This document shows, piece after piece, positions 9,321 to 64,000 of a stretch of DNA of 64,000 nucleotides (within the stretch, counting starts at the first letter, position 1; the number at the start of each line of letters is the position of its first letter). A program made the position numbers and the translations under genes. Origin of the DNA: Eledone cirrhosa (Eukaryota); NCBI GenBank assembly GCA_964016885.1, contig OZ024743.1:340318001-340382000 (forward strand). The letters are read 5' to 3'. The notes under the pieces were generated by a model. That model was not told where the DNA came from and ran no database searches. It was given only the letters and a program-made list of their open reading frames with translations.

Positions 9321-9517
9321 ACTATTATTGTCATTTGCGTTGTGACGCACACACTTCAAATTTCAAATTTTCCTCTTCTTAAGTCAACCATTGTTTATAT
9401 GTGTGTGTCTGTATATATATATATATATATTAATATATAAGTATTGAAGTTTCCGTTGAAAATTGAAAAAGTCATAGGAGTGAAGAGTGCTCTATGTATA
9501 ATAAACAATACAATATA

Positions 9518-9596
9518 ATTACCTCATTACCAGAGGTTTCCCGAATAAGACGAATACGAAAAAAAACGTCCTCATTCGTTCGTCGGACAAGGCAAT
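9518..9596 (-). ncRNA. Type I hammerhead ribozyme, CCGACGA core variant
   Basis: Stem I AUUGCCUUGU/AUGAGGUAAU, core CCGACGA, stem II CGAAUGAGGACG/CGUCUUAUUCG, then GAAACC-UCU-GGUA. Confidence 0.75.
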
Positions 9597-10912
9597 TTAA
9601 AACATAGTGAAATAATTGGAAAGTCTCCTCAAGAAATGCAAAAATATATAAATAAAAGTAATGCAAGAGATATATAAAAAAATATATAAAATATATAAGG
9701 AAATATAGTTAGGTATGTGTATATGTATGTATATAAACTCACAAATGTACATATGTGTGTATGTACAATTGCATGTGTATGGTGAAAATGTGTGCGTAAG
9801 TACATATATGAGGGCAAGTATATTTGTGTATATGTGACCACAAATACGGATATAATATGAGTTGAAAAAGAAAATGATAATATAGTTGACATGCACCCAG
9901 ATACAGGTATTAAATACACATAAGAGTATGAAAGCACGCGTATAAACACACACACACGCGCGGTCACTTATATGCGGAAGATAAAGAGGGAAGGGAGTGT
10001 AATAGTAAAAAGAAGTGCCATTCTCGATATATGTATAAAAATGAAACAGTATATGAGAATGAAAAACATTTTTAAATGAAAGAGAAAGTAATCAATTAAC
10101 ACTAGAGAAAAGAAAACAAACATAGGTACTCACGTACATACACAGATATCTATAAAAAACATATATCTATAAAAAAATATTTATACACACAAATACGCAC
10201 AGACAAAAGCGCATGCATGCGTACATACATACACACGAGGCACGTATATATATATATATATATATATATCGCCCCATGTATATCTAATCACACGTACGTA
10301 CGCGACTATATATATATATATATACACATACACATACCCATCCATACATACATATACATATATACACACATACATACACATTCACGTACATTCACCCGCT
10401 TACACACACACGTGAAAATAAGAATGTAAAAAAGATAGATGTAAAAACATAGATATAAAAACACACATACACACACATATATATACACGTACGCACGCGC
10501 ACATACGGAGGCGTTCGTATACATATACAGAACGTATACGCACATAAGCACACTCAGACACATAGATACAGAGTATAAAGCAGCCTTATGAATAAATGAG
10601 TACAACTATAAAATCGGCTGCGAAATAACAGAATATATCTGGAGTGGAAAACGCAAGTGACTTTTTAAATCAGGTAGTGAAAGAAAATGGGGAAGTAAAA
10701 TGTGGAATGTGAAGATATTAGGTAAGTGAATCGAAGAGTAGGGGTGAGGGGTGGGGGGTTACTGGTGGATGTGAAGTAAAAATAAAAATTAAATTAAAAA
10801 TAAAGTTAAAAATGAAAGTAAATCAGAAAGAGAAGTCTGTAATGAGAATAATTTAAGGAAAGTGAAGAATAAGAGCTTATGGAGGATAAGTATCTGAAAG
10901 TGAGTTAAGTTT

Positions 10913-11380
10913 CTATGAGCTGGAAAGCAAGAGTGATTTCATGTGTGGGCAACTGGTGAAAATTTCTGTTTTTGTATTTAGGCAGGTTTTTGGTGATTTA
11001 AGGTTTTGTAAAATCCAATATTTTTCACTTATGCAGAGAGTGCATCTTCTAGTTCCTCTTGCATATTCTTCAGATTGGTTCAAAATTGACCAATCCAATT
11101 TATATTGGATACCTTGGTCTTTCAAATCCCATATTCTGCTAGCCAGAGCTGTTGTGAATTTTTTTCTGGATGTCGGAAAGATGCGACATGTGAGTAATAA
11201 CGCGTTTTGAATTTGTCTTGTGTCATACCCACATATCGTTCGCTGGTGGCTGGTTGATTGTTGCTGATGGTTGTCACTTTAGCCGCATATACAATGGCTT
11301 TGGTGTTGCATTTACCTTGTAATGGGCATTCACTTTTGACTCTACAGGAGCAATTTTGATGTTCTCTGGGTGATTTCTTA
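10913..11380 (-). pseudogene. Penelope GIY-YIG endonuclease fragment
   Basis: CSCRVKSECPLQGKC..IVYAAKV..YVGMT..FKTRYYSH, then a frameshift, then CTLCISEK...LN..TE...CPH. Confidence 0.88.
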
Positions 11381-11425
11381 TTGCATTTCTTGAGGAGACT
11401 TTGCAAATATTTCACTATGTTTTAT

Positions 11426-11503
11426 ATTACCTTGTCCGACGAACGAATGAGGACGTTTTTTTCGTATTCGTCTTATTCGGGAAACCTCTGGTAATGAGGT
11501 AAT
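11426..11503 (+). ncRNA. Type I hammerhead ribozyme, CCGACGA core variant
   Basis: Inverted copy of 9518-9596. Predicted cut after A11493. Confidence 0.75.
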
Positions 11504-11672
11504 TATATTGTATTGTTTATTATACATTATATATATATATATATATATATATATATATATATATATATATATATATATAACAAAGGAATTGTGGTAAGGA
11601 ACCAGATGGACCATAACGCACCAGAGTACTCAATACTTAGGGTAGTAGAGTGGGAAATAGGAAAAAGTATGA

Positions 11673-60410: not shown

Positions 60411-62646
60411 TAGTAGGCGGAATTTGCTCATAGTTTCACGTCCATATTTGTGAGTCTTTTTAAGGGATACGTGCCTATGAGTGTGCACAAATGTATAATG
60501 TTACGATCTCATCAATACATACTCTCCTTAAGAAAACAAGCTGGATTTTGACAAAAAGGAACGACAGGGAAAGTATAAGGAATTCTAATCACTCATTGGC
60601 TAATAATAAAAATTAATTTCCCTTGTTCAGAAAATAGTGTTCACTTATATATACAATGAAGTAGCGTAGTTAGTAACGAAATATTCACCATAATATGAAA
60701 CCTTTTACTTTAAATATGAATTGTTACCAGTTGATTGCCTTAAAACGGGTGATAGATTAGGTCTATCATCCACGTAATTTGCAAGTATTAAAGCATTCCC
60801 AGATATTTCATACTCACCGTTTTGAACATTGATTGAAAAGACATATGGCTGATGGCGTTCCAGCGTTGAGTATCCTTTTCTAAAATTCAATCAGCATATC
60901 TAGTACTACATCATCCGACGTAACCTTCCTTTTCTTAAGGCAATTGGGTGTCATTTAAGAGAGAATTGCCTGCTATGTCTAGTTGGTAGAACGAACATAT
61001 AGCGGTATCCATGATGGCTCGTTTTGCTTCTTTTCTATGGTATTATGATGTACGATTTGATCGACTTTATTTCTATATAATGTACTGTCAGATATAATAC
61101 GTCTAGGAATATAGAGAAGATTGACAATAGAGAGAAAAATATTAATATGAAAATACCAACATCACAAAATAGATACGAATAATATATCCTCCTACTTCAT
61201 ATCAGCAGGAAATCATTTCTGTTTCCCCCAATCGGCCGACGCGTGTATTTAAACTATTACTCTCTGGGAACGCTCAAGCTTATGATGCAAGCGAATATCA
61301 CGACCTTACCTGATTGGTTTTATTGAAAAGATTGATTAAATATTGATTCATACGCTTGCTTTGTCTGTTTGATGAATAAAAATCTGACCTCTAACCCATG
61401 AAAATAACCATGTAAAGAGGAATAATCGCTGGAGAAATTATTAGAGATGGAGTGATTTAGGGATGATAGCAGCTCTCATGTAAACAGTGATAAAATGAGT
61501 CAGCATGGAGAACCAGTCGAGTGTGAGAAACATTTATGTGGTCATTTCACCTACAAGTAATAGCAAGAAAATATATCTCGGTACAAAATACAAGCAACAA
61601 AATTACAATGTTGTCAGTGTTATAAGAGAACGGTTCCTTAGATATGAAAATATTTGTTCATTTTCGGCCCTCCCCACAAATAAACAACAAAAATAAACCA
61701 AAAAACAACATCTACAAACAAAACAAAACAAAACAAAACAACAAAAACAACAACAAAAGTAAACAAAAAACAACAACAAACAAACTAGAAATGAAAAAAA
61801 ATTATCTTGACTTTGCTAACGTAGCTTTTGATTTCTAAGAATGAAAGAAGTTCTCACTCTCTGTATATATATATATTAAGTATTAATTCAACTATAATAT
61901 TTAATCTCGCATCGGTAAGCATTGAGCACGCTGAACTTTGTCTAAGGCAGCTAACATACTATATCATAGTTCATTCTCCTCTATTCTAATGATATTTGAC
62001 TCATATATATATATATATATATATATATATATATATATATATATATATATATATATATATTTATTAAAATATATATATATATATATATATATATATATAT
62101 TTATTAAAATAACAGATTAAAGTTTATTATTACTATATATATATATATATATATATATATATATATATATATACATGAAAGTATGTATGTATACGTACAT
62201 ACATATATGTATACAGACGTACAGTAGTATGTATATATATACATACATGCACATATATATATATATGCACGTATCGGTTTACCGAACATTTATTATAATG
62301 GCCTAAACACTGTACGGTGTAATTCGGGCTGTTTGTTTGTTTACAAACAAACAAACCGAGCATTATAATAAATGTTCGGTAAACCGATACGTGCATATAT
62401 ATATGTGTGCATGTATGTATATATATACATACTACTGTACGTCTGTATACATATATGTATGTACGTATACATAGATACATACTTACATTTAATTAACTGC
62501 CGTACTAAGAGTGAGAAATGAAATTTCGTTTCATTCTATTCCATTTATATATACATATATATATATATATATATATATATATATATATATATATATATAT
62601 ATATATATATATAAGAAATTAAAATATGGTTAAAATAGTGCATATA

Positions 62647-62713
62647 TTTTATTATGCGCATTTCAAAAACAAATATCATCCTGGGACGATAGTTGCGTTC
62701 TCATCAGATAAAA
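62647..62713 (-). ncRNA. Type I hammerhead ribozyme
   Basis: UUUUAU/AUAAAA, CUGAUGA, a long imperfect stem II, GAAAUGCGCAUA (AUGCGCAU palindrome). Confidence 0.78.
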
Positions 62714-63357
62714 TAAGGTAACATGATATGATGCCTAAAAAAAAACACTTGTGAACAAGAATGTTGACTGGGCACTTTCTTGTTCACAAGTGTTTTTTTA
62801 GGCATCATATATATATATATATTAACAGTTTTATTCTTGAGAAATCATCAGGAATATAGATGAGATTCCTGAATATATATATATAAGATATAGAGCTTAG
62901 CTTTGTTTACAAACAGCGGAGAATTTTGTCATGATACCCAAAGATATATATATCAGAATTGGTGCTCTGAAATAGCGATATTTATATGAATGTATATATA
63001 GTGTATTTTGCAATACACTGTATGCCTAATTAAAAGCATTTTGAAGACCTTACGCTATTGTTTTAAAGTAGTAACTATTCTAATTTTCAATTTTTGCTGG
63101 ACCAGCAACCGCTCTGTATAATCAGTTCCTGATTACTACTGGAATTCTATAAGAATCCAACATTCATAATTTCCAGCAGGTAAGAGGAGTGCTAAGCTCT
63201 GAGCAGTACCAACAGTACAAAACAGAGATCTGTCAGCTTATCTGCCTTTCTTTGCTGAAAAAAGATGTAAGTCACATAGTCACTACTTTAAAACAATAGC
63301 GCAAGGTCTTCAACATGCTTTTAATTAAGCATACAGTGTATTGCAAAATACACTATA

Positions 63358-63745
63358 ACGGAGGCACATGGCTTAGTGGTTAGAGCATTGGCCTTGCAAT
63401 CGAAAGGTTGTGAGTTCAATTCTCAGACAGGGTGATGTGTTGTTTCCTTGAGCAAGACACTTTATTTCACATAGCTCCAGTTTACTCAGCTGTAGAAATG
63501 AGATGATAGGGACTGCGGTCCCTATCATTCCACAGCAAAGTGGCCGTGGAGGTGCCACAGCAAAAAGCACCCAACCCACACTGTAAAGTGGACGTGTAGG
63601 CGCCACGGAAAAAAGCACCCAACACTCACTGTAAATGAGGTTGGTGTCAGGAAGGGCATGCAGCTGTAGAAATCAAGCCAGAATCAGTTCCCGTCACACC
63701 CCTGCAAGCAGGGAAAAGCGGGGGTAAAATGATGATGATGATGAT
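63358..63745 (+). mobile_element. tRNA-derived SINE (family 2) with a (GAT)n tail
   Basis: A box TGGCTTAGTGG, B box GTTCAATTC and a 3' (GAT)n. Confidence 0.85.
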
Positions 63746-63895
63746 ACATTCATATATATATATATTGCTATTTCAGAGCACCAATTGTAATTTTCAATTT
63801 TTGCTGGACCGGCAACCTGTATAATCAGTTACTGATTATTACTGGAAATCTATAAGAAACCAACATTCATAATTTTCAGCAGGCAAGGGGAGTGC

Positions 63896-63943
63896 TAAGC
63901 TCTGAGGAGTACCAACAGTACGAAACAGAGATCTGTCAGCTTA
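63896..63943 (+). ncRNA. Type I hammerhead ribozyme (intact core)
   Basis: UAAGCU/AGCUUA, CUGAGGA, GUAC-CAACA-GUAC, GAAACAG-AGAU-CUGUC. Cut after C63937. Confidence 0.9.
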
Positions 63944-64000
63944 TCAAAATACACTATATACACATTCATATATATATATATTTATATATATATATATAAT

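What the first reader, a model, noticed from the sequence alone, without database searches (positions are those of the whole stretch)
9440..63980. Polarity rule: foldback insertions have ribozyme-sense arms pointing outwards
Seen: in every inverted structure where the HHR fixes the RNA strand, the left arm is minus-sense and the right arm is plus-sense. The cases are 9440-11530, 18463-18876, 29643-30070, 30536-31078, 35659-36482, 43663-43861, 52150-52311, 52492-52840, 53418-53910, 54362-54570, 54828-56673, 56738-56925, 62175-62545 and 62955-63980. Both outer junctions are therefore RNA-3'-ward ends, generally abutting (TA)n. The inner junction often falls within or beside HHR stems (18612, 30917, 43750, 52279, 54420, 56157-56185, 56790). 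Known: Penelope copies often have an inverted partial pLTR at their 5' end. Inference: both ends of a break in (TA)n prime reverse transcription, and the two cDNAs join through self-complementary ribozyme stems.
Basis: partly seen in the sequence, partly recalled or inferred. Interest (0 to 1): 0.74.

Follow-up and report, generated by a model that had tools for sequence, protein, structure and literature searches.

The report
Penelope insertions primed from both ends
These back-to-back DNA hairpins are the known landing footprint of Penelope-like jumping genes, and their fine structure shows the ribozyme stems rarely join the two halves; each half is likely a separate DNA copy of the same RNA, started from either side of a cut in TA repeats and then end-joined.

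Summary
The polarity is real. All 14 window cases run minus-then-plus. So do 138 junctions of the 310-bp repeat (selected by one end) and 88 unselected neighbours from ten families; no direct opposite-polarity junction was seen. This is the published head-to-head Penelope-like (PLE) layout with a one-sided tail (PMC3846280, PMC8557442); the coding families are Hydra-clade PLEs. In the 310-bp family inner ends are not enriched in the ribozyme (34 of 276, 38 expected), joins mostly use 0-5 nt of microhomology or small inserts, and only 2 of 138 use a ribozyme stem. In single-unit families inner ends do pile up at the ribozyme, likely because the RNA starts there: one family stops at an initiator-like A with an extra G:C pair (45 of 50 sites), as a cap would leave. 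Both arms share the template haplotype (66 of 69), yet often neither contains the other, which argues against the published self-priming model. Five arrays fit an uncut multimeric RNA better than a monomer circle. Earlier scan notes on this genome reached twin priming too.

The parts
9441..11527 (.). Family A (Hydra-clade PLE): minus arm 9441-~11377 with tail piece and GIY-YIG end of the ORF; plus arm ~11378-11527 with ribozyme (core 11436)
18463..18935 (.). Family E: minus arm 18463-18612 ending inside the core; plus arm 18613-18935 with ribozyme and tail; blunt join
29643..30070 (.). Family C: minus arm 29643-29701 (no ribozyme); plus arm 29700-30070 with core at 29770 and tail
30536..31077 (.). 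Family A: minus arm 30536-30916 without tail; short plus arm 30917-31077 with tail; neither arm contains the other
35659..36482 (.). Family D: minus arm 35659-~36075; plus arm 36076-36482 with decayed ribozyme and tail
43664..43861 (.). Family F: minus arm to ~43751 ending in stem II; plus arm from ~43750, cut off at 43861 by a family D foldback
52148..52313 (.). Family G: minus arm 52148-52279 with ribozyme, ending at the likely RNA start; 34-nt plus arm
52492..52840 (.). Family H: old foldback (73% arm identity), core on minus at 52595; inner part spanned by a public-run contig
53417..53917 (.). Family C: minus arm to ~53600; plus arm with core at 53660 and tail
54361..54568 (.). Family B (Hydra-clade PLE stub): both arms stop near the likely RNA start inside stem II loop; short templated insert; 80-nt tail on plus arm
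54827..56673 (.). 310-bp tandem ribozyme repeat: tailed minus arm 54827-56158 (4.3 units), inverted templated insert 56159-56183, plus arm 56184-56673
56735..56926 (.). Family B stub, 1-nt overlap at 56791, tail on plus arm
62175..62548 (.). Family I (about 430-bp tandem unit, strand set by the copy at 43010-43566): minus arm to 62300, plus arm from 62303; no ribozyme in either arm
62955..63975 (.). Family J (relative of the 310-bp unit): minus arm to 63078; plus arms 63076-63357 and ~63746-63975 (core 63902), split by a tRNA-like repeat

Best explanation
These are head-to-head insertions of Hydra-clade Penelope-like elements and of non-coding ribozyme repeats with the same footprint, likely made when the element's enzyme cuts both strands of (TA)n and each 3' end primes its own cDNA, the two cDNAs then likely being end-joined through a few bases of microhomology. 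Shown: polarity; two fixed outer ends per family, one arm at each, their distance being the tail; shared haplotype of the arms; short microhomology or small inserts at the join. Inferred: the fixed ends are two reverse-transcription start sites; both cDNAs usually copy one transcript (or two from one locus); in single-unit families both run off the capped 5' end, which lies at or in the ribozyme; tandem families are copied from uncut multimers, so their inner ends scatter; a host microhomology-type repair (polymerase theta-like, recalled) seals the join; ribozyme stems serve only occasionally.
For: Fixed paired ends: 310-bp unit 285/310, A 3531/3603, B 1246/1326, G 215/283, P 3075/3234, M 1077/1128 of their references; 39 of 42 B insertions have exactly one tailed arm. 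Same template: identical haplotype in 66 of 69 insertions, shuffle mean 8.3, max 17; 48 of 49 partner arms carry a rare variant used to select the other arm. Not copies of each other: in 18 of 58 short-family insertions the tailed arm stops 8 nt or more short of the other; 5 of 42 B pairs do not overlap at all; L101, L320 and L096 break containment at unit-level variants. Join: mean overlap 2.5 nt in 106 clean joins versus 0.75 by chance, 32 of 138 with inserts, distance between inner ends uniform (14 within 15 nt, 13.8 expected). RNA start: 59 of 84 B inner ends lie in a 15-nt stretch, mode at the A of TTAGTC with TATTTAT at -31; G arms stop about 30 nt after TATAAATA; 564 sites have both B arms starting at that A with one base between, G:C in 45 of the first 50 and in 22 of 24 of the subfamily whose natural base there is T; the G sits on the tailed arm in 11 and the other arm in 7 of 20. 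In vitro, a PLE protein cuts and extends both strands from two start sites that define the tail, without needing ribozyme cleavage, and is predicted to be a dimer (PMC11167929).
Against: All evidence is genomic footprint; no RNA run was available. Two-base centres are rare (52 sites) and CG, the simple expectation if both cDNAs kept a cap base, is only 2 of 50. TATA and initiator matches are clear in B and G, not in A or P. L118 and L282 also fit a fold-back with a loop. 14 of 24 haplotypes are private yet fixed in all units, which still suits a monomer or circle step for most arrays. About 7% of tail-selected 310-bp loci (4 of 91, a fifth ran off the fetched stretch) and several of 60 others have no second arm. 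Target-site duplications cannot be read in (TA)n. The enzyme that moves the 310-bp repeat is not identified directly.
Confidence: 0.72

Rival explanations
1. Self-priming or snap-back: one strand folds back at a palindrome and is copied, and the endonuclease later trims the two ends to give the tail (PMC3846280 proposes self-priming on an antisense template; PMC8557442 suggests the tail comes from endonuclease resolution).
For: Arms nearly always share haplotype. Four of 106 clean joins use 8-16 nt of hairpin complementarity, 0.17 expected. L118 and L282 fit. Many B and G junctions look palindromic.
Against: Loops are uniform over the unit and reach kilobases in family A with little or no overlap. 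Palindromic look in B and G follows from both arms stopping at one site. L101, L320, L096 and non-overlapping B arms need extra trimming steps. The cap-like G lies on the sense strand.
Confidence: 0.1
2. Double priming as in the best reading, but the join is made by the reverse transcriptase itself jumping onto the other cDNA's 3' end, not by host repair.
For: 17 of 106 clean joins are blunt and 24 have one base of overlap; a single G:C between cap-ended arms could be one non-templated base.
Against: Overlaps of 2-5 nt are enriched (65 of 106 have 2 or more, 18% expected) and many inserts repeat nearby sequence, as recalled for theta-mediated joining.
Confidence: 0.12
3. One reading: the two cDNAs anneal through the ribozyme's own complementary stems as the usual route.
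For: L084 and L302, from different haplotypes, share one 16-nt extended stem I join (p about 7e-4). Seven of 14 window cases have an arm ending in the ribozyme.
Against: 34 of 276 inner ends in the ribozyme versus 38.3 expected; 92 versus 80.1 with the extended stem, p 0.13. B and G arms stop at the same point rather than at partner strands, and solo B copies stop there too.
Confidence: 0.03
4. The foldbacks are sequencing or assembly chimeras.
For: Young arms are up to 99.5% identical; the 56157-56185 join was not bridged in listed contigs.
Against: Fixed biological ends, one-sided tails, diverged arms, strict polarity, and junctions in public-run contigs and raw Illumina reads.
Confidence: 0.01

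Closest known systems
Insertion unit of endonuclease-bearing Penelope-like elements (PMC3846280 passages; PMC8557442 passages)
   Same: Inverted 5'-truncated copy head-to-head with the direct copy, tail on one arm, partial tandems, simple-repeat targets.
   Different: Here near-obligate and countable; tails are 25-160 nt rather than 30-40; junction data do not fit the proposed antisense self-priming.
Hydra clade of PLEs, e.g. Hydra-1_Obim (PMC8557442 section 11 and supplement passages)
   Same: [quoted passage not shown]
   Different: Family A is about 3.6 kb with a long 3' region; several distinct families coexist; no tree was built.
Poseidon element PAc in vitro (PMC11167929, main text read)
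   Same: Both strands cut and extended, two internal start sites equal the tail, uncut RNA is the substrate.
   Different: Other clade; the paper does not link both-strand extension to inverted arms in the text read.
LINE-1 twin priming (review PMC10760644 passages)
   Same: Second priming at the target, two cDNAs joined by microhomology, both outer ends RNA-3'-ward.
   Different: L1 primes first at the poly(A) tail and second at an arbitrary internal site, in a minority of insertions; here both starts are fixed and arms usually overlap.
Animal non-LTR retrozymes (PMC7229834 listing and passages; bioRxiv 10.64898/2026.07.22.740005 first fifth)
   Same: Tandem non-coding units of a few hundred bases with a type I hammerhead, linked to PLEs.
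   Different: Two-armed insertion with fixed ends; five arrays point to a multimeric rather than monomer-circle template.

Membership tests
EN+ PLE insertion unit | Inverted 5'-truncated copy adjacent at the 5' end (head-to-head) | tested here: met
   14 of 14 window cases; 88 of 88 unselected direct junctions; 11 of 11 in family P
EN+ PLE insertion unit | Tail on one arm only | tested here: met
   39 of 42 in B; 310-bp family; length 25-160 nt, wider than published
EN+ PLE insertion unit | Target-site duplication around the whole unit | not testable with these tools
   flanks are (TA)n; no empty-site allele at hand
Hydra clade (families A, B, P) | RT plus C-terminal GIY-YIG in one ORF | tested here: met
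   719-aa ORF in L234; 1671 homologues; Pfam gave no hit for it and only a sub-threshold GIY-YIG hit for the B ORF
Hydra clade (families A, B, P) | RWK, DKT, CxCX5C linker, CCHH absent | tested here: met
   read in translations against section 11; RWK and DKT seen for A and P, linker for A, B and P
Hydra clade (families A, B, P) | Phylogenetic placement | not tested
   by-eye match to Hydra-1_Obim only
Non-LTR retrozyme (310-bp family) | Tandem non-coding units each with a type I hammerhead | tested here: met
   most units carry the canonical core
Non-LTR retrozyme (310-bp family) | Self-cleavage and circular RNA | not testable with these tools
   no RNA holder listed
Non-LTR retrozyme (310-bp family) | Insertion from a monomer circle | tested here: inconclusive
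   5 of 137 insertions share unit-specific variants across arms, against a monomer; private fixed haplotypes fit one
LINE-1 twin-priming inversion | Poly(A)-primed first arm, arbitrary internal second primer | tested here: not met
   no poly(A); both starts fixed; works like it, is not a member
Self-priming model for PLE inversions | Hairpin palindrome at the junction, one arm contained in the other | tested here: not met
   4 of 106 joins with 7 nt or more; containment broken in 18 of 58

The most novel reading that the evidence does not exclude
Hydra-type Penelope elements integrate by programmed twin priming: a dimer primes both ends of a break from two fixed sites on one capped, uncut RNA (sometimes on RNAs of two different elements), so every insertion is closed by joining two first-strand cDNAs. 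This would be a distinct integration mode, would explain inverted pLTRs and tails together, and would make animal retrozyme arrays copies of linear multimers at least some of the time.
Probability: 0.45. Interest if true: 0.75.

Novelty: new variant of a known kind. Interest (0 to 1): 0.5.

Why it matters
How Penelope-like elements make their inverted repeats is called undefined in PMC8557442, and the published idea is antisense self-priming. Young families here give hundreds of clean junctions that separate the models and favour two primed cDNAs. With an in vitro PLE system already published, this is directly testable. It also bears on how animal retrozymes spread and on a large repeat class in this 3-Gb genome (21,140 exact matches for one family motif). 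The polarity itself is not news.

Tried and rejected
Rfam gave no hammerhead among the 150 listed of 170 matches, mostly microRNA look-alikes; a strict own descriptor found only 4 window sites, so cores were read by motif and family. A DNA search of the genome with the 310-bp unit found nothing because common words are skipped. One search used a reference that included an antisense stretch of family D and double-counted family J inside 310-bp arrays; its two direct plus-minus pairs vanished after correction, and only searches are used. Ribozyme cleavage site as inner-end hot spot: 2 of 174 ends versus 3.9 expected in the 310-bp family, rejected there. One arm stopping at the other's start site: no excess near unit positions 275-310. 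Tailed arm always longer: 52 of 87 and 22 of 51, rejected. No RNA holder listed. Second read-laying inconclusive. No solved structure matched the ORF. Genome-wide counts of both polarities by one gapped pattern could not be had, so polarity rests on samples, mostly from the largest contig. A paper search for the cap-derived G found nothing.
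Full report
Setting. The window lies on contig C4 of a 3.0-Gb genome. It holds many short inverted repeats beside (TA)n. They belong to at least ten families. I set the RNA strand of each family from its hammerhead core, found on one strand only in 11 of 11 stretches tested. 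For families A (9440, 30536) and B (54362, 56738) the strand is confirmed by a reading frame. Family A encodes RT plus C-terminal GIY-YIG with the RWK, DKT and CxCX5C marks of the Hydra clade. Family B copies extend into a similar endonuclease frame.

Observation. All 14 cases are minus-left, plus-right; 22 of 28 outer ends abut TA. Outside the window I used three kinds of sample. Listings of internal motifs, counted by eye in the first 100 matches on C1: 8 of 8 mixed clusters for the 310-bp repeat, 12 of 12 close pairs for B, 13 of 14 pairs within 6 kb for A (the exception is two ends 1 kb apart). End-selected loci of the 310-bp repeat: 87 junctions in 91 stretches and 51 in 60 stretches from C1 to C23, all minus-plus; selection fixes one arm, so these test anatomy, not polarity. 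Unselected neighbours in the fetched DNA: 62 direct minus-plus junctions (two are one insertion) and none opposite in 1.18 Mb, 27 and none in 0.47 Mb. Opposite pairs (3 among neighbours) always have a simple repeat between them, as expected for two insertions in one TA run.

Known. PMC8557442 (passages, section 11, supplement passages) describes the inverted 5'-truncated copy, the one-sided tail and (TA)n targeting, and calls the cause undefined. PMC3846280 (passages) names head-to-head as the most frequent arrangement and proposes self-priming on an antisense template. So the polarity rule restates a known layout.

Outer ends. Each family has two fixed outer ends, one per arm, on either side: tails of 25 nt (310-bp unit), about 70 (A, G, K), 80 (B), 51 (M) and 160 (P). 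About 995 tailed ends of the 310-bp repeat abut TA genome-wide. PMC11167929 (main text read) shows in vitro that a PLE protein cuts and extends both strands and starts at two internal sites that bound the tail. I infer these ends are the start sites.

Inner ends, tandem family. Pooled over 138 junctions, 34 of 276 inner ends fall in the ribozyme (38.3 expected) and the two ends are at uniform distance. Clean joins overlap by 2.5 nt on average versus 0.75 by chance; 32 carry inserts, many repeating nearby sequence. Four joins use 8-16 nt of hairpin; two of them, in different haplotypes, are the same extended stem I join. The window's own 56157-56185 join is a short inverted insert, not a stem pair.

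Inner ends, single-unit families. B, G, F, A, K and P arms do stop at or just before the ribozyme, while tandem I, J and D scatter. In B, 59 of 84 ends lie in 15 nt, peaking at the A of TTAGTC, with TATTTAT 31 nt upstream; G arms stop about 30 nt after TATAAATA (promoter consensus recalled). Where both B arms begin at that A with one base between (564 sites), the base pair is G:C in 45 of the first 50, and in 22 of 24 for the subfamily whose four long copies have T there. The G is on either arm (11 and 7 of 20; two unclassified) and occurs in several subfamilies, so it is not one propagated master. An extra G from copying the cap is recalled from LINE work and was not found in the library. Against: two-base centres are rarely CG (2 of 50). 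I infer that these arms run off a capped sense RNA.

One template, two cDNAs. Arms share haplotype in 66 of the 69 insertions (of 87) whose arms cover all 28 diagnostic sites; shuffles give 8.3. In a set chosen by a rare variant in one arm, 48 of 49 informative partner arms carry it throughout. B arms share 47 non-majority bases versus 10 shuffled. Yet in 18 of 58 short-family insertions neither arm contains the other. Five of 137 arrays share a unit-specific variant between arms (0.12 shuffled). In L118 and L101 the register matches from the outer ends; in L320 and L282 it is shifted by one unit; in L088 by 14. L101, L320 and also L096 cannot be one arm copied from the other without extra steps; L118 and L282 can. 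A monomer circle cannot give matching registers, so these came from multimers; private haplotypes fixed in all units (14 of 24) leave a circle open for the rest.

Two-family joins. Three of the 60 second-set loci join a 310-bp arm head-to-head to another element: two Hydra PLEs and family M, the partner tailed in the two that could be checked. They would prove independent priming, but a later deletion between neighbouring insertions gives the same picture, and L288 has a further PLE arm next to it.

Artefact check.

Novelty. Searches for Penelope with twin priming, self-priming, both strands or microhomology found no paper making this case. Older subscription papers on PLE structure and bioRxiv supplements were not seen and may hold such a model. 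L1 twin priming is described in PMC10760644 (passages). PMC7229834 (passages) has no hit for 'inverted'; PMC2377424 (passages) documents the internal Penelope promoter; bioRxiv 10.64898/2026.07.22.740005 (first fifth) links retrozymes to PLEs. Earlier notes of this scan reached twin priming and cap run-off on other DNA of this genome; they are unchecked and not counted as support. Verdict: real, known layout, with a better-supported mechanism than the published one; interest 0.5.

Noticed in passing
window 41901-42300 (tail to 42334): 400-bp, 98.5% palindrome with a tail on the right arm and no ribozyme core seen; family M, same two-end footprint.
   Followed up: partly
   Followed up: yes
window 34676-35415 and 62726-62810: Further inverted structures beside simple repeats, strand not set.
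   Followed up: no
window 54411-54430 and L238: Two family B insertions on different contigs have nearly the same templated junction insert: recurrent repair outcome or copying of a whole foldback.
   Followed up: no
L288:1466-4930, L280:4338-5383, L287:1652-2763 (L280 and L288 as fetched; L287 reverse strand): 310-bp arm joined head-to-head to a different element; L288 also has a second, same-haplotype PLE arm across the TA run.
   Followed up: partly
L088 plus arm: Two variants recur together with a 7-unit period in one arm: a higher-order repeat or a 7-unit template read twice.
   Followed up: no
L321:890-1700: A 310-bp arm is joined to about 800 bp that matched nothing else fetched; possible captured host DNA.
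   Followed up: no
window 63358-63745: tRNA-like headed repeat splitting the family J plus arm.
   Followed up: no
window 1-8800 and 19324-26990: Several decayed LINE copies with AP endonuclease and RT, unrelated to the foldbacks.
   Followed up: no
310-bp family, all loci: Lengths of the two arms correlate weakly (rho 0.32 and 0.35), as if both grow at once.
   Followed up: partly
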